64,000 nucleotides of DNA from the human T2T-CHM13v2.0 reference genome, Homo sapiens (GCF_009914755.1 NC_060925.1), one strand, 5' to 3'. Shown: positions 7,883 through 50,679, counted from the first letter of the stretch. Notes: generated from the sequence alone by a model not told the origin. Numbers and translations: made by a program.

Positions 7883-39414
<31,532 letters not shown>

Positions 39415-40809
39415 CCACTGCCCAAGCCCTGCCCGCCTCTCCCCCCACGCTCAACCTGCCCACTTGTCCAGGCCTGGCCTCTTTCTTGAGGTGGCCACCA
39501 GGCCCAGGCCAGGCCCTTTGCCCAAGAAGAGAGGGTCTGCCCTGCCTCACTCCCCTCTTCAGTCCCAGTAGACTCTGCTCCCTAGCCCTGAGCAGGAGGC
39601 TGGGAGCAGCTCTGTTTCCTAATTCAGGACCCCACTCATCTAGCCCTCCAAGAGCCTCCGCCAAATTGTAGCCATGTAATTGGAACAACCCATAAGGCCT
39701 GCTTCCCAGTCCATGGGAGATTCCAAGTGGCCACTGCAGGAGTCACTCACCTCCCTCTCTCCCTGTAACTTGCCACCTGCAGTTCTTAGGGCTGTGGGGT
39801 CAGATGGTGGTGGTGAGAGGCCTTGGGGCTGGGGAAGGAGAGTGGACTTTGGCTCACTCTGCCATGAGAACAGGACACCATCCTGCCCAGCCCAGACGGG
39901 GTTGCTCCTGGTCCAAGAGGCTACCTGCTCCAAGGCGGAGGGTGGGAGCAGGTGTGCCAGGGCTCAGGGCTCAGACTTGGGAGGGCCTAGGCAGAAGCCC
40001 CAAGTTCTGTTTTCTGAGGTATGTGCTGCCCTTGGCTTCAGCATGAGCCTTGGTAGCAGAAGGTGAGGAACCTCCTCTGCCCTGGTCCCTGGGTGGAATC
40101 TTCCCATGTCCTTGGCCCTGCCTGGGGTGTGTGGTGTGTGCTCCTGCATCTTGTCTGGGAGTGCAGTGACCGGGACCAGAACCTTCCCCACCTCAATTAG
40201 GGCTTAGCCATCTCCCTGTCCCCAGCACCCCTCCCCAGCCCACAGTGGTGGCCTCTGCCTCTTTCCTGGAGAGAGAAGGACAGTGCACGGAGAGGTTTCC
40301 AGAGCACAAATTGTTGGTTCCTAGCACAAATTAGATGGTTTGGAGCACAATGGTGAAGCACACTCCCCTCCCTCCTCACCTGGGGTCCAATGTTCTGTCT
40401 AGTGGCAGCTTTTCCCCTGGAACAGGGGTCCCTGGAGTTCACAGGCTTATCCCCAGGAAGCCTCACTCCTGGGGAAAGACAGATAATTTCACTGCCCCTT
40501 TGAGCCACCACTCACTCTCCTTATTACACAAGCACAGCCGCCCAGTGTGCACATCATGTGCAGACACCTTGGAAACCTTTCCCAAGCCTTCCTGGCCCAC
40601 AGTGGCCAGTGCCATAGGCAGTGCTGTGGACAGTAGAGGCTGCCAAAGGCAAGGGCTGGTCTTCAGGATGGAGGCCAGCCTGTGCAGAAGGCTGCAGCTG
40701 ACAACAGCGACCCCACCTGCCATTACCTTCAGGGCCTCCTCTGGAAGAGAACCCATTCTCAGAGTGCAGCCAGGGAGGAACCTGACCCAAGAGTAAATGT
40801 CTGCAGAGA

Positions 40810-40952
40810 GATGGATGGATGGATGGATAGATGGATGGATGGGTTGGGGAGTGGGGGTGGATGGATGGATAGATGGATGGATGGATGGATGGATGGGTTG
40901 GGGGGTGGGGGTGGATGGATAGATGGATGGATGGATGGACGGATGGGGTGGG
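40810..40952. repeat. Compound (GGAT)n / G-run repeat in SLC6A17 3'UTR
   Basis: Three blocks of (GGAT)n-AGAT-(GGAT)n, each followed by a GGGTTGGGG..TGGGGG-type G-run. Confidence 0.95.
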
Positions 40953-43148
40953 GGAAGGAAGGAAAGGAGGGAGAAAGGAGGGAATACTGGCTCCATCTTT
41001 GAGAGCTCTGGTGGGCAGGGCAGAAACAGGCCACAGTGCTCAACCCGGACACCCTCACGAAGGGTCGCAAGTCACTCTTGTGGCTCAGATTGCTCTTAGG
41101 ACCTGGAGGGACAGACCAGAATCAGGGTCCCCTCCTTTACCCCTGAGTTCCTTACTGTTCCCCCAAGCCTGGGAGCAGTCTATCCCCCAACCCTGCCATC
41201 TCCCTTACTCATCCCTCTTCCACAGCTTCCCCTTTCTAGCCCCCTCTGCCCTACCTGTCTTTCCTGAGTGTTTGAGGGGAGAGAGAGACCCACATCTCCC
41301 CAAAGAGATGAGCTTTTGGGGCACAACATCCCACCGCAGTCCCCCTCACCCGACAACACCTCCTACCTGGCCCCTTGCCAAATCCCAAGCAGAATTAGCA
41401 ACAGGAAAAGCAGAGCCCCAGGAGAGACACTCTACTATATATACTCTTCTATATATTCTGTTTCTATTGTATATTCACTCTGTACATGTGGGTGTAAATG
41501 CTGTTAAATGACAAACCCAATATTATACTGTGGCTGGTGGACTATTTTCATCCTCAGTGCTGTACAGATCTATTTTCATTGTATATTTGATATATTTTTA
41601 ATTTTGTAGCGTGTGGCTGGGCCAGGCCCCAGCGGGAGGGGCTGAGCTGGGGCTGTGTGCTTGCTAGGTGTGGGCGCGCTAGTGCTCGTTGTAGCCTTTT
41701 GCTGTGTCTTCGCTGTGTGTTAGACGTAGGGCCTAGAGCTCGGGGTGTGTGTGTGCGTGCTGTGTGTATGGTGTGCACATACGTGAGTGTGGGTGTGTGT
41801 AGCGTGCTGATCTGTGACTCCCAGTGTTCACCACCTTCCTGAAGACCACGCTCCCTCCCCCTGCCTCCTCCTCCTCCTCTTGGCTCTATTGGGAGCCTCA
41901 GGGCCGGCAGGGTGCTTCGGGAGCCCCCTGCTACGGGGAAAGGCATGTGTTTCTTGCTGGTGACTCATTGCCTTCACACCACTGGGTTTGCCAGAAACAG
42001 GGAAGGAGGGCGTTAAGGGAAAAAAAAAATCCTCAAATTTATTTACCAGTCAGCTTCTTGCTGTTCCCAGTAGAATCGCTAGCTCTTCTCCAGAGGAAAA
42101 GTACTAGGATTCTTAAGATGGCGAGACCCCAAGAGGGATCTCATAGCACTGCTGCATTTGCCGTTGACGCAGTCCTGACAGTGTTTGAAAAGGGCCGCCT
42201 GCCCCCTCCCCACTGTGCTTTTGATGCCTTTGGAGTCAAAGGCAGGTGGGGTCACCTGATGAGCTAAGATCCAGCCCCAGAATCCTGGAGGAGCAGGAGG
42301 TAGCAGGAGAGGACCAGGTCCCCAAGTCCCTTCACAGGGTCCCCACCCCCACTGGCTTTGGTGCTGTCCACACAGTGCCCACCAGAAGGCAGAGGGAACT
42401 CCAGGGCAGGGATGTGCCTGAAAGAGTCAACAGTCCCCTGATCCCCTACCTCTGCCTGCCCTCCAGCCCCATCACCAGCTTCTTGCTCAGGGAGACTTCC
42501 GCCCTCCTCACTGAGGCAACATGAAGCCCGAGGCCCAGATGGGGGCTGAACAGGTAGGGCACATCAGTTAATGCCAGTGAGGTCAGCTTCTGCCCTCCAG
42601 CAATACATGTGCAGGGGTTGCTGCTTTCCCAGTGCCAGGAGAACCCCCGCTCCGAGTCAGCCTGTGTGGGTCATGAGGCTGGGGCCCAGGAGACACGGTC
42701 CCAGGCACTGCACAGGCCTGCAGTATTACCAGGCGGAGGGGCTGCTTTTCTGCCCTTCCTCACCCCCACGCCCCACCCCACTCCCCCAGAGTACTCCCCA
42801 CTGTGAAAAGAGCTGGAAACTAAACTGGTTAGAATGAACCTGGCTCCCTGAGCATCCCTGGATCCTTCAAATAGGCCCTGAGATGTGAGGTCTGCTGCTT
42901 CACTGGGGCCCGATGACTTTGGCTGGGGGAGGGGGCCTAGGGCCTCTTCTCATTGAAAGCTCTGCTTTATACAGACCCAAGCATACACACCAGGCCGTCA
43001 CTTTGGGTTCTGGCATAAGTTCAGAACAATTCAAGTCCATGTGTCCCATGGCTGGTCAGAGCCCTGGGTCAAAACCACTCAGCCCAGGGGAGGGGATGAG
43101 GCATTGTCACCCTAGACCCCTCTTCCTCTCTCCCCCACCATAGTGTGC

Positions 43149-43154
43149 AATAAA
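43149..43154 (+). terminator. Polyadenylation signal AATAAA of SLC6A17
   Basis: gtgcAATAAAgtgtctgttcttacca, with a CA cleavage candidate ~43169-43170 and U-rich downstream sequence. Confidence 0.85.
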
Positions 43155-44128
43155 GTGTCTGTTCTTACCAAACCCTTCTTGCCTTTCTCACCTGCTCTTG
43201 CAATGAGGGAGAGGGAAGGGTGGCCAAGGATCCTGCGGGAAGCTTTGGGGTGAAAAGCTTGGACTGGGATGGGTGGACAGGACTGCTGAGGGGGGTTGTG
43301 GGTGCTGGCTGGCTGAGGAGCAGCGCGGGGAGTGTGCACAGGTTCATATCTGTATTTTCCTAGGAATTGTCCTAGGTATTAACAATGCACACACTTGTAG
43401 AGGGCCCTATTGGGGTCCAGCGATTCCACATGTCTAATTTCCTGTCATCTTTGCAACCGTTTCCTAAGGGAGACCCTTTGCTGGCTACATTTTTCCAGGT
43501 GAAACTGCATCTGAAATTAGGATGGTATTTGGTGGTCTCTTACAGGACCCTGTAGGGGAAACTCCTGTCCCACCTGACTACCAGGAAAAGCTATACTTGT
43601 CAGCCTGGCAAGGGTGGGGTGTGTGGAGGCCCACCTCAGGGAAGGACAGGGGTGGGAAGGTGCCAGTGTTGAGAGGTCTGACAGCAAGGACCAGGACTCT
43701 CTTGGGTGCTGGGTTGGGGGGGGGGTGGGCTCCCCTGGAACAGGCATATTCTAAAGTTCTGCCCCTCTCTTCAAGATAGCTATCCCTCTTGCAAACTTCA
43801 GTAGAAGGTAAAGACGAACTAGGGGATCTGACATCACCTCTGTTCTAACATTCCAGCCCCAAGTATTCATTTATTAAACACCCACTGAATACTCAGCACT
43901 GTGAAGAACGGACTGTGCTGGTGGCTGGGAAGCTCTTCTTCCTGCCTCACCCTCTAGGAGCACCGACATTGAAAGAAACAAGAAGTCTGGCTCCTGGAGG
44001 AGGCCTCACCCCCACCCCACCCAGCTCCAGGCTGGAATGATGCTGCTTGCACTCAGACGCACACAGCCAAGGACCCTGAAGGAACCTGCCATTTTCTTCT
44101 CTTGCCATAGAAAGTGTTGTTCCAGGAA

Positions 44129-48915: not shown

Positions 48916-50679
48916 CCTCACATCCATGGTAGGCTGTGTCACAGTAGCCTGGGCAGGGGGCTCTCCTATCCTTCCCCGGCTCTGTGTTTTGAGGGAACAC
49001 CAAGACCTCACACAAAGAAATGATGGGGACAAGTCCCATAGTGCTAACTGCAGCATATCGACTCCCTCAGAGAGGTACACGTAACAGGTGAGCCCAGAGT
49101 TCTAGAATAAACCTTCAGCAAGGGTGAGGCATTCTCTGGAGGCCTCAGGACTGAGGCTGAGCTCCCCTCTCCCGAGCTGGTCAGTGCACAGAGCTGGGAG
49201 TCCTGGCCCCATGCACCTTTACCCAGCTGCCTCTCTCAGGCTGGGCCCTCTGTTTTTGTCAGCTCTTCCTAGGTTCCTATGCCTGTGTCCCAACTTTCTG
49301 ATCTTCCTCCCTTCCCTCTTGGCCTCCTTTTTCCCTGGCAGCTTTCTCCCTTTACCCATCTCCCCAGGTGCTCATCACTATCCACAAGCACCGCAGAGTG
49401 GAAGCACCAGTTGGGCAGATTTACTAGGATGAGTGGCTGTTTTATTCACTGATGTATTTCCAGTACCCGGAACTGCTTCTGGCATATCGTAGGTATTCAA
49501 TAAGTGTTCATTGAGTTAATAAGTCAATCAGGGGTGGGATACTATGGGTTTTGTCCCCTTGCCTACTACACTCCCTTTGTTACAATTACTGAGCTCAGTC
49601 ATCCTGATGAACGGAAAGCAGGGGAGAGACCCCAAGGGACTTTGCCAGGACACGGACCAGATAGGACTTGAAAGTTATTCATTACATTAATATTCTGTGG
49701 TTCTTTCTTCCTCACTCCAGTTTCTGGCCTGTCCCGGGTCTTCTCTTCCCAGTCACACTTGGGATATTTCTTTTCACTGCAGCAAACTCAAAGACAGCTA
49801 AACTCTGAAATACAAACATCAGTTTCGAGGAGCAGGGACTGGGCACAAAGGGGGTGCCAGTAAATGTGTGTTTCTGATTAAGTCACCTCCCCTGCGTGTC
49901 AGTACAGATCATCAAAGATCATTGTCATTTTGGTTTTCTGGCCTCATTAATAATGAGACTTTTGCTTGTAAAAATCCCTTGCATTGGCACTGAGCTTTTA
50001 ACCTTTCCTGAGACACACATAGGCCCTTGTCTTGTTTTTCTCAGTTGAGCTAGGTACTGCCTGATCTGGAACTGGGAAGGTGCACAGGTGTCCAGGGCAG
50101 GTGTGTCATTCACCTTTCATTTCTGCCTCAAGATCTCTTTACATCATCCAGACAGGCATGGAGGCTGCCTGAAGCTGTAAAAAAGAAAAAAAAACCCAAT
50201 GGGGATTAATATGAAGATGTAAAATAGGTTCTGGACTTAACAAAAACAAATGAATCTGGAAATTGCTCTTGGGATAGGGCCAGTAAAGTCCTGTTGGTGC
50301 CTACGTTTTGGGTATGGCAGCTTCTCAATCACTTAGCAAACAGGTTCTCAGAGGCAGGCACTGTGGGAGCTATCAAGATGAAAAAGCACAATGCCGCCTG
50401 CAGGAGCTCAGGGTTAGGGAGGGGAGAGGAGACATATACACAGGCAAAGTCAAATTGTAATGGGTAGAATAAGAGTAGAAACAGGAAGGGGTCATGAGGC
50501 AGGACACGGGCATTTCCTATGTGGACCCCAGAGCAATGACGAGCAAAGGCTTTAACTAATGACTTTTCAGGGCCACCCACCCACTCCACATCCATAAAAC
50601 ATTTCGCGATGAACACAGCCAGAGCTACGGTTTCCTTCCATCCGGCACAAGAAGCGCTTCTCTGCCCAAGGCCACCCCG

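What the first reader, a model, noticed from the sequence alone, without database searches (positions are those of the whole stretch)
40290..40536. Tandem array of miR-218 sites, each with 3'-supplementary match, in the SLC6A17 3'UTR
Seen: ggtttccagAGCACAA-attgttggttcctAGCACAA-attagatggtttggAGCACAA-tggtgAAGCACA. Seed matches lie at 40303, 40323, 40344 (7mer-A1) and 40356 (7mer-m8), with a fifth AAGCACA at 40530. Known: miR-218-5p is UUGUGCUUGAUCUAACCAUGU (complement ACATGGTTAGATCAAGCACAA), a SLIT2/SLIT3-hosted, motor-neuron-enriched miRNA. Each of the four clustered seeds is preceded by GGTT, TGGTT, ATGGTT or ATGGT, matching the miRNA 3' end, while the linkers differ. Seed spacing of 13-21 nt is in the cooperative range. 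Inference: a switch-like repression cassette, a natural sponge, or a seed + bulge + 3'-pairing trigger for target-directed miR-218 decay. The gene may already be a predicted target; the array architecture is the notable part.
Basis: partly seen in the sequence, partly recalled or inferred. Interest (0 to 1): 0.8.

Follow-up and report, generated by a model that had tools for sequence, protein, structure and literature searches.

The report
Clustered miR-218 sites in SLC6A17 3'UTR
Four closely spaced binding sites for the neuronal microRNA miR-218 sit in the tail of the SLC6A17 messenger RNA; they arose by duplication of a roughly 21-base unit and most likely act as an ordinary, perhaps cooperative, repression cluster rather than as a device that destroys the microRNA.

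Summary
AGCACAA lies at 40303, 40323 and 40344, and AAGCACA at 40356 and 40530, all sense-strand in the annotated SLC6A17 3'UTR. Four hexamer matches in 60 nt occurred in 0 of 5000 dinucleotide shuffles.

The cause is a degenerate tandem repeat with period 21, 2.6 copies and 79% match. The recurring GGTT blocks are therefore largely inherited copies, not independent events.

The 3' pairing is short: 4-6 bp to miR-218 nt 14-19. It never reaches nt 13 or nt 20-21, and its offsets are -1, -3, -3 and -5. Its energy is not unusual against shuffled flanks.

The two printed miR-218 TDMD triggers, TRIM9 and SSR1, pair 8-9 bp to the miRNA's very 3' end. The TRIM9 duplex scores -22.9 kcal/mol against -14.7 to -16.9 here. 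TDMD is not supported.

Mouse Slc6a17 is already listed as a TargetScan miR-218 target. It rises by log2 0.43 (FDR 3e-6) in miR-218 hemizygous hippocampus, shows no significant change with antagomir, and has no CLEAR-CLIP chimera.

Best reading: a duplication-born cluster of weak canonical sites giving additive or cooperative repression. Cross-species conservation could not be tested here.

The parts
39415..43172 (+). SLC6A17 3'UTR (last exon after the stop codon), the context of all the sites
   Evidence: Hub annotation. The only canonical AATAAA is at 43149, matching the annotated end. A variant AGTAAA at 40792 also lies downstream of the array.
40297..40350 (+). Degenerate tandem repeat, period 21, 2.6 copies, 79% matches
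   Evidence: TRF. The repeat finder family D1 gives 71% identity between 40308-40328 and 40329-40349. In the unit alignment A1, only AGCACA is invariant across the 4 units.
40294..40309 (+). Site 1: GGTT (pairs miR-218 nt 14-17), 5-nt linker, 7mer-A1 seed match 40303-40309
   Evidence: TargetScan-like 3' score 3.5, offset -1. Duplex -16.5 kcal/mol. P(8 nt unpaired) 0.156.
40315..40329 (+). Site 2: TGGTT (nt 14-18), 3-nt linker, 7mer-A1 seed match 40323-40329
   Evidence: 3' score 3.5, offset -3. Duplex -14.7 kcal/mol. P(unpaired) 0.011, below the UTR median of 0.035.
40335..40350 (+). Site 3: ATGGTT (nt 14-19), 3-nt linker, 7mer-A1 seed match 40344-40350. An alternative TTAGAT block at 40331-40336 is complementary to nt 10-15.
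   Evidence: 3' score 4.0, offset -3. Duplex -16.4 kcal/mol. P(unpaired) 0.013.
40350..40362 (+). Site 4: ATGGT (nt 15-19), 1-nt linker, 7mer-m8 seed match 40356-40362. Its first paired base, 40350, is the A opposite nt 1 of site 3.
   Evidence: 3' score 2.0, offset -5. In one search RNAduplex preferred the site-3 register for this 30-mer.
40530..40536 (+). Site 5: isolated 7mer-m8 seed match, 174 nt downstream of site 4
   Evidence: 3 bp to nt 13-15 only. Duplex -12.4 kcal/mol, seed only. P(unpaired) 0.254.

Best explanation
The array is a cluster of four canonical but individually weak miR-218-5p sites: three 7mer-A1 and one 7mer-m8. It was created by tandem duplication of a roughly 21-nt unit in the SLC6A17 3'UTR, and a fifth isolated 7mer-m8 lies 174 nt downstream.

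In neurons that express miR-218, AGO-miR-218 complexes bind the seeds. Because the seeds are 13-21 nt apart, neighbouring complexes can act additively or cooperatively to lower SLC6A17 mRNA. The short GGTT-type matches pair with the only C-C step in the miR-218 3' half and may add a little affinity. They are mostly a legacy of the duplicated unit and are not needed for this reading.

Shown: the sites, the repeat, the pairing geometry, the mouse TargetScan flag and the up-regulation in miR-218 hemizygous mice. Inferred: direct binding, cooperativity, and selection for retaining the seeds.
For: - Seeds are on the sense strand of the annotated 3'UTR.
- 0 of 5000 shuffles reach the observed clustering.
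- The array is a tandem repeat.
- Spacing of 20/21/13 nt lies within the 13-35 nt optimum (Saetrom 2007, abstract).
- Local A+U is 55% against 44% for the UTR, placing the array in the top 8% of 74-nt windows.
- The only canonical poly(A) signal is at 43149, so the array is present in the annotated mRNA.
- Both mir-218 precursors are present in this genome: RF00255 at 94.5 and 92.3 bits.
[quoted passage not shown] It is up by logFC 0.434, p 2.5e-8, FDR 3.4e-6 in the sheet '1B miR-218-2 hemi vs wt', at logCPM 8.4.
- The same paper treats multi-site miR-218 targets as real: four MREs in Kif21b and two in Syt13 (passage).
- Between units 2 and 3, all 6 differing columns of 21 fall outside the 12 columns that face miR-218. 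The hypergeometric probability is 84/54264 = 0.0016 (my arithmetic on alignment A1).
- A review states that miR-218 tunes down a neuronal gene network in motor neurons (passages).
Against: - Three of the four clustered sites are 7mer-A1, the weakest canonical 7-nt type (established knowledge, recalled).
- The sites lie 889-942 nt from the stop codon and more than 2800 nt from the UTR end.
- Seeds 2 and 3 are predicted to be poorly accessible: P(unpaired) 0.011 and 0.013 against a UTR median of 0.035.
- In the antagomir experiment of the same paper, Slc6a17 did not change significantly: logFC 0.10, p 0.32.
[quoted passage not shown] The main text says the second source of its target list, beside TargetScan, was the Moore 2015 CLEAR-CLIP set from P13 cortex.
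- The authors say predicted miR-218 targets as a group did not rise in the hemizygous mice, so the Slc6a17 rise may be indirect (passage).
- The column test is post hoc. The six differences form two runs (alignment columns 2-6 and 12-14), so if they reflect only 2-3 mutational events the probability rises to about 0.08-0.18.
- Conservation of the human array in other species was not testable with the tools at hand.
Confidence: 0.6

Rival explanations
1. The array is a neutral tandem duplication. A 21-nt unit that happened to contain AGCACAA was copied by replication slippage. The sites exist but have little or no regulatory effect, and the GGTT match is coincidence carried along with the unit.
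For: - The array is a tandem repeat.
- Genome-wide, triple AGCACAA arrays are nearly all plain tandem repeats. 121 matches were found, and the 100 listed fall into 19 loci, most of them runs of overlapping hits.
- A 3' score of 3.5 or more occurs at 3-5% of arbitrary positions.
- Duplex energies are matched by 9-23% of shuffled flanks.
- There was no significant antagomir response and no CLEAR-CLIP chimera.
- The sites are of a weak type, sit mid-UTR, and two seeds have low predicted accessibility.
Against: - Units 2 and 3 are only 71% identical, yet every seed is intact.
- Mouse Slc6a17 is flagged as a TargetScan target and is up-regulated when miR-218 is halved.
Confidence: 0.27
2. The array is a TDMD trigger. 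Seed, bulge and 3' pairing at these sites change the AGO conformation and lead to ZSWIM8-dependent decay of miR-218.
For: Each site has a seed, an unpaired centre and some 3' pairing. miR-218 can be subject to TDMD, since the TRIM9 trigger lowers it and induces tailing (passages of PMC8653786).
Against: - The printed miR-218 triggers pair 8-9 contiguous bases up to nt 21: TRIM9 nt 13-21 and SSR1 nt 14-21 (supplementary file 2).
- Here the pairing is 4-6 bp and ends at nt 17-19.
- The TRIM9 duplex is -22.9 kcal/mol against -14.7 to -16.9 here.
- SLC6A17 occurs 0 times in the 4 searched supplementary files of that CLASH screen. File 1 was not searched, and the cell types named in file 3 appear non-neuronal, so this is weak evidence.
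- ZSWIM8 knockout did not raise baseline miR-218 in 293T cells.
Confidence: 0.03
3. The array is a natural sponge. SLC6A17 mRNA titrates miR-218 away from other targets in neurons where the mRNA is abundant.
For: There are five sites per transcript. The mRNA is abundant in mouse hippocampus, at logCPM 7.7-8.4.
Against: From established work on target-site abundance (recalled, not checked here), one mRNA species with a handful of 7-nt sites adds only a small fraction to a miRNA's total site pool. No chimeras were recorded in P13 cortex. No test was made here.
Confidence: 0.04
4. The repeated motif serves another trans-acting factor, such as an RNA-binding protein or a different small RNA, and the miR-218 match is incidental.
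For: 'AAATT' after the seed is also shared by units 2 and 3, so conservation between the units is not confined to the bases that face miR-218.
Against: - No Rfam family reaches threshold in 39000-43300.
- There is no stable structure: z +0.88, with 162 of 200 shuffles folding at least as well.
- The region is single-copy in the genome.
- The only invariant block across the four units is exactly the miR-218 hexamer.
Confidence: 0.06

Closest known systems
TRIM9 3'UTR miR-218 TDMD trigger, and the SSR1 candidate (Li et al. 2021, PMC8653786)
   Same: A natural miR-218-5p site in a 3'UTR, with a seed match, an unpaired centre and 3' pairing. The TRIM9 site was found in this genome at C14:45203345-45203364.
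   Different: TRIM9 and SSR1 are single sites whose seed-end helix covers nine miRNA bases (nt 1-9 and nt 2-10 in the printed brackets), plus 8-9 contiguous pairs reaching nt 21. The TRIM9 duplex is -22.9 kcal/mol. Here there are four weak 7-nt sites with 4-6 pairs ending at nt 17-19, at -14.7 to -16.9 kcal/mol.
Multi-site miR-218 targets Kif21b (four MREs) and Syt13 (two MREs) (Taylor et al. 2023, PMC10637775)
   Same: Neuronal mRNAs with several miR-218 seed matches in the 3'UTR, taken as direct targets in hippocampus (passage). Slc6a17 is in the same paper's TargetScan-flagged list.
   Different: I did not see the spacing of the Kif21b sites. The printed Syt13 pair is about 50 nt apart. The SLC6A17 sites are tiled at 13-21 nt and derive from a tandem repeat.
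Cooperative closely spaced miRNA sites (Saetrom et al. 2007, PMC1874663; Grimson et al. 2007, recalled)
   Same: Identical seeds 13-35 nt apart give optimal down-regulation (abstract). The spacings here are 20, 21 and 13 nt.
   Different: Cooperativity was not measured for this array. The site 3-4 spacing sits at the lower limit, and the two sites share base 40350.
Repeat-encoded miRNA site arrays (Schnall-Levin et al. 2011, repeat-rich coding regions; recalled, title seen only as a phrase that 60 papers hold) and engineered bulged-site sponges (Ebert et al. 2007, recalled)
   Same: Many sites for one miRNA generated by tandem repetition. The unit length here (20-21 nt) is about one miRNA length, as in synthetic bulged sponges.
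   Different: Those natural arrays are in coding repeats with many copies. This one has 2.6-4 degenerate copies in a 3'UTR. Engineered sponges pair far more extensively at the 3' end.

Membership tests
Canonical multi-site (cooperative) miRNA target cluster | Two or more canonical seed matches (7mer or better) to the same miRNA, on the sense strand of the mature mRNA's 3'UTR | tested here: met
   Three 7mer-A1 and two 7mer-m8 matches inside 39415-43172 on the + strand. The miRNA sequence was checked in print and in Rfam.
Canonical multi-site (cooperative) miRNA target cluster | Spacing between seed starts in the cooperative range (13-35 nt) | tested here: met
   Spacings of 20, 21 and 13 nt, against the Saetrom 2007 abstract. 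Site 5 lies 174 nt away, outside the range.
Canonical multi-site (cooperative) miRNA target cluster | mRNA responds to loss or gain of the miRNA | tested here: inconclusive
   Published mouse data only. logFC +0.434, FDR 3.4e-6 in miR-218-2 hemizygotes; +0.10, p 0.32 with antagomir; and predicted targets as a group did not shift in the hemizygotes.
Canonical multi-site (cooperative) miRNA target cluster | Physical AGO-miRNA occupancy (CLIP, chimeras) | tested here: not met
   [quoted passage not shown] The main text names the Moore 2015 P13-cortex CLEAR-CLIP set as its second target source. This is one tissue and one dataset. No motor-neuron data were seen, and of the 3 supplementary files of Moore 2015, file 1 could not be read and the two that were searched hold no occurrence.
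Canonical multi-site (cooperative) miRNA target cluster | Evolutionary conservation of the sites | not testable with these tools
   No vertebrate genome other than the window's own is held ('no relatives here'). There is only indirect support from the mouse TargetScan flag.
TDMD trigger | [quoted passage not shown] | tested here: not met
   4, 5, 6 and 5 bp ending at nt 17, 18, 19 and 19, with nt 20-21 never paired. Compare TRIM9 nt 13-21 and SSR1 nt 14-21, and -22.9 against -14.7 to -16.9 kcal/mol.
TDMD trigger | Seed pairing plus a central bulge or mismatch | tested here: met
   Seeds pair nt 2-7 or 2-8, and nt 8/9-13 are unpaired at all four sites.
TDMD trigger | miRNA tailing/trimming and ZSWIM8-dependent loss of the miRNA on trigger expression; dependence on conserved flanks | not testable with these tools
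   Experimental. Li et al. 2021 report these features for TRIM9 (passages).
Natural miRNA sponge / ceRNA | Sites contributed by the transcript form a sizeable fraction of the miRNA's total site pool | not tested
   Needs absolute copy numbers. Only the relative abundance is known, at logCPM 7.7-8.4 in mouse hippocampus.

The most novel reading that the evidence does not exclude
The tiled 20-21-nt units work as a multi-AGO platform. Each unit is a weak seed plus pairing centred on C16-C17 of miR-218. Several loosely 3'-paired AGO-miR-218 complexes held side by side on one abundant glutamatergic-neuron mRNA would sequester or destabilise miR-218. This would be a multi-site, short-3'-pairing route to miRNA turnover, distinct from the single extensive-pairing triggers known so far. 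It would help keep miR-218 activity low outside motor neurons, while the same array silences SLC6A17 in a threshold-like way where miR-218 is very high.
Probability: 0.04. Interest if true: 0.7.

Novelty: new member of a known kind. Interest (0 to 1): 0.3.

Why it matters
SLC6A17 encodes a synaptic-vesicle amino-acid transporter, and its mutations are pathogenic for intellectual disability (title of a cited paper). miR-218 is the motor-neuron-enriched miRNA whose loss causes neuromuscular failure (review passages).

If the array works as a cooperative cluster, it would be a compact natural example of how tandem duplication builds a strong miRNA response element out of weak sites. It would also be a convenient 70-nt cassette for testing cooperativity and the value of short, negative-offset 3' pairing.

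It does not open a new kind of mechanism. [quoted passage not shown]

Tried and rejected
- TDMD trigger: rejected on pairing geometry and energy, compared with TRIM9 and SSR1.
- Structured RNA or miRNA gene: the fold of 40270-40390 is no better than shuffles (z +0.88). Rfam gave only a sub-threshold mir-328 hit elsewhere in the UTR (E 0.7, 24.1 bits against a gathering score of 70).
- Transposon-derived or multi-copy element: the 191-nt region 40230-40420 matches only itself in the genome, and the 40-mer is unique.
- Independent 3'-supplementary sites: rejected because the units are repeat copies and the energies are not exceptional.
- The genome-wide 'control' patterns contain CG when read backwards. 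They are depleted for that reason, so I did not use them as a null.
- Literature in the main text: 3 of about 8.4 million papers hold both SLC6A17 and miR-218, and none links the two. 0 bioRxiv preprints hold both.
- Papers not held: Amin 2015 (PMC4913787), Amin 2021 (PMC8542606), the DOI I tried for Thiebes 2015, and Briskin 2020. Their motor-neuron knockout tables may bear directly on the claim and were not seen.
- Supplements: file 1 of the Moore 2015 supplements could not be read. File 1 of the Li 2021 supplements was not searched.

Full report
**1. What is there**

- AGCACAA occurs on the + strand at 40303, 40323 and 40344.
- AAGCACA occurs at 40356 and 40530.
- These five are the only AGCACA hexamers in the 3758-nt SLC6A17 3'UTR, 39415-43172.
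- Against miR-218-5p they are three 7mer-A1 sites and two 7mer-m8 sites. The base after the last two is C and G, so neither is an 8mer.

The miRNA sequence was not taken on trust.
- It is printed as the miR-218-5p mimic in PMC12903727, Table 1 (passage).
- A pattern search of the window's own genome found two perfect complements, at C4:20.51 Mb and C5:169.30 Mb.
- Both score as mir-218 precursors: RF00255 at 94.5 and 92.3 bits against a gathering score of 62. The 5p arm is visible in the alignment.

**2. Is it more than chance?**

As independent events, far more.
- 0 of 5000 dinucleotide-preserving shuffles of the UTR place four AGCACA within 60 nt (2 reach three).
- The shuffles carry 1.15 hexamers on average against 5 observed, and 0.74% of shuffles have 5 or more.
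- On the + strand of the whole 64-kb window, only two places have a non-low-complexity hexamer four or more times in 60 nt: this one and a GGATGG microsatellite at 40834.

The events are not independent, however.
- Tandem Repeats Finder reports a period-21 array at 40297-40350 with 2.6 copies, 79% matches and 5% indels.
- The repeat finder gives 40308-40328 and 40329-40349 as copies at 71% identity.
- In an alignment of the four units, only AGCACA is invariant.

Genome-wide, the pattern of three AGCACAA with 8-25-nt gaps has 121 matches. The 100 listed fall into 19 loci, and 21 matches were not listed. Most of those loci are runs of overlapping hits inside plain tandem repeats, for example C11:1.256-1.263 Mb and C2:237.07 Mb. 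Duplication is therefore the usual way such arrays arise. The tool's backward-read control contains CG and is depleted for that reason, so I did not use it.

The region is single-copy in the genome, so it is not a dispersed repeat.

**3. The 3' matches**

A TargetScan-style 3'-pairing scan gave the following.

| Site | Target block | miRNA nt paired | Offset | 3' score |
|---|---|---|---|---|
| 1 | GGTT | 14-17 | -1 | 3.5 |
| 2 | TGGTT | 14-18 | -3 | 3.5 |
| 3 | ATGGTT | 14-19 | -3 | 4.0 |
| 4 | ATGGT | 15-19 | -5 | 2.0 |
| 5 | 3 bp only | 13-15 | -1 | 3.0 |

- Nucleotides 13, 20 and 21 are unpaired at every clustered site.
- At arbitrary positions, a score of 3.5 or more occurs at 3.3% (UTR) to 5.1% (window), and a score of 4.0 or more at 0.9-2.3%.
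- Of the 25 other AGCACA hexamers on the + strand of the window, only 1 reaches 3.5.
- One unit with seed plus GGTT is thus a roughly 1-in-25 coincidence, and duplication then multiplies it.

RNAduplex energies of the 30-nt targets are -16.5, -14.7, -16.4 and -16.9 kcal/mol. The last of these re-finds the site-3 register. With the seed fixed and the 22 upstream bases shuffled, 15%, 9%, 11% and 23% of 1000 shuffles do as well.

In the passages I saw of McGeary et al. 2022 (PMC8940178):
- Offset is defined as unpaired target nucleotides minus unpaired miRNA nucleotides.
- Optimal offsets are 0 or +1, or more positive when nt 10-11 pair.
- Optimal pairing tracks G or oligo(G/C) in the miRNA.

The second point counts against sites 2-4, whose target loops are 3-5 nt too short. 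The third point counts mildly for them, since GGTT faces the only C-C step (nt 16-17) of the miR-218 3' half.

Site 3 also holds TTAGAT at 40331-40336, complementary to nt 10-15, which would be a +5 offset alternative.

**4. Context in the mRNA**

- The only AATAAA is at 43149, 24 nt before the annotated end. A variant AGTAAA at 40792 also lies downstream, so the array is in the annotated mRNA.
- The array is A+U-richer (55%) than the UTR (44%), in the top 8% of 74-nt windows.
- It lies 889-942 nt from the stop codon and more than 2800 nt from the 3' end.
- Local-folding estimates give P(8 nt unpaired) of 0.156, 0.011, 0.013 and 0.042 for sites 1-4, against a UTR median of 0.035.
- In the minimum-free-energy fold, the TTGGTTCCT of unit 2 pairs with the seed of site 3. 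The fold as a whole is no more stable than shuffles: z +0.88, with 162 of 200 shuffles at least as good.
- No Rfam family reaches threshold in 39000-43300.

**5. Published evidence**

Only 3 papers in the searched library hold both 'SLC6A17' and 'miR-218' in their main text. In the passages I read, none connects them: one lists SLC6A17 under miR-138-5p, and the others cite the two separately. No bioRxiv preprint holds both.

Supplementary file 1 of Taylor et al. 2023 (PMC10637775) does connect them.
[quoted passage not shown] The main text names two sources for its target list, TargetScan and the Moore 2015 CLEAR-CLIP set from P13 cortex.
- In sheet 1A (antagomir a.218 against control, P8 dorsal hippocampus) it has logFC 0.10, p 0.32.
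- In sheet 1B (miR-218-2 hemizygous against wild type) it has logFC 0.434, p 2.5e-8, FDR 3.4e-6, logCPM 8.4.

The authors caution that in the hemizygotes the predicted targets as a group did not rise (passage), so this up-regulation may be indirect. The same paper blocks four miR-218 sites in Kif21b and two in Syt13, so multi-site miR-218 targets are familiar.

The motor-neuron knockout papers (Amin 2015, Amin 2021) are not held. Their tables could settle the point.

**6. TDMD and sponge**

Li et al. 2021 (PMC8653786) identify natural miR-218 triggers.
- Their supplementary file 2 prints TRIM9 with pairing of nt 1-9 and 13-21, and SSR1 with nt 2-10 and 14-21.
- The passages read report miR-218 loss of 30-55% and A/U tailing for TRIM9, and a dependence on the flanking sequence for both.
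- I recovered the TRIM9 site from this genome. Its duplex is -22.9 kcal/mol, with nine pairs reaching nt 21.

The SLC6A17 sites have about half that 3' helix and never touch the 3' terminus, so the defining feature is not met. SLC6A17 has 0 occurrences in the 4 searched supplementary files of that screen (file 1 not searched). This is weak evidence, because the cell types named there appear non-neuronal.

The sponge idea was not tested. From recalled work on site abundance, one mRNA with five 7-nt sites should add little to the miR-218 site pool.

**7. Selection on the seeds?**

Between units 2 and 3, six of 21 aligned columns differ, and none of the six lies in the 12 columns that face miR-218 (TGGTT plus AGCACAA). 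The hypergeometric probability is 84/54264 = 0.0016 (my arithmetic).

This suggests retention of the miRNA-facing bases, but the evidence is limited.
- The test is post hoc.
- The differences form two runs. With 2-3 underlying events the probability is 0.08-0.18.
- AAATT after the seed is shared too.
- At about 29% divergence between copies, the duplication is probably not recent. This is an inference from a very small sample.

**8. Verdict**

The most likely function is ordinary seed-based repression of SLC6A17 by miR-218. It is strengthened by four sites tiled 13-21 nt apart, within the 13-35 nt optimum of Saetrom et al. 2007 (abstract). The array was born from a tandem repeat. Confidence is about 0.6.

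A functionally negligible neutral repeat is the main rival, at about 0.27. TDMD and sponge readings are each at a few per cent.

The gene is already a printed predicted target. What is new is only the description of the array's repeat origin and geometry, hence 'new member of a known kind' and modest interest.

Noticed in passing
window 40803-40986 (core from about 40834): A GGATGG/(GGAT)n-type microsatellite in the same 3'UTR, about 470 nt downstream of the array. It is the only other place on the + strand of the window with a non-low-complexity hexamer four or more times in 60 nt, and it is masked in NCBI's file.
   Followed up: no
window 40331-40336: TTAGAT in unit 3 is complementary to miR-218 nt 10-15 and overlaps the ATGGTT block by two bases. 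This gives site 3 an alternative 6-bp, +5-offset pairing register.
   Followed up: partly
window 27722-27729, 37943-37950 and 50384-50391 (+ strand): Three full 8mer matches to the miR-218 seed (AAGCACAA) lie outside the mature mRNA. Two are in SLC6A17 introns and one is between the KCNC4-DT exons. They are probably irrelevant to mRNA targeting.
   Followed up: no
G000 places listed, e.g. C16:67686649-67686668 (+), C14:77347208-77347227 (+), C18:60409441-60409460 (+), C6:116068051-116068069 (+), C1:57746788-57746806 (-): These genomic sites have the TRIM9-like architecture for miR-218: eight bases complementary to nt 13-20, a short bulge and a 7mer-m8 seed. Their gene context is unknown here. 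Any that lie sense-strand in an expressed 3'UTR would be better TDMD candidates than the SLC6A17 array.
   Followed up: no
window 41097-41170 (- strand): A sub-threshold Rfam hit to mir-328: 24.1 bits against a gathering score of 70, E 0.7. It is most likely chance.
   Followed up: no
window 40313-40351: Within the array, the TTGTTGG-type linker of one unit is partly complementary to the seed match of the next. This lowers the predicted accessibility of seeds 2 and 3, although the fold as a whole is no more stable than shuffles.
   Followed up: partly
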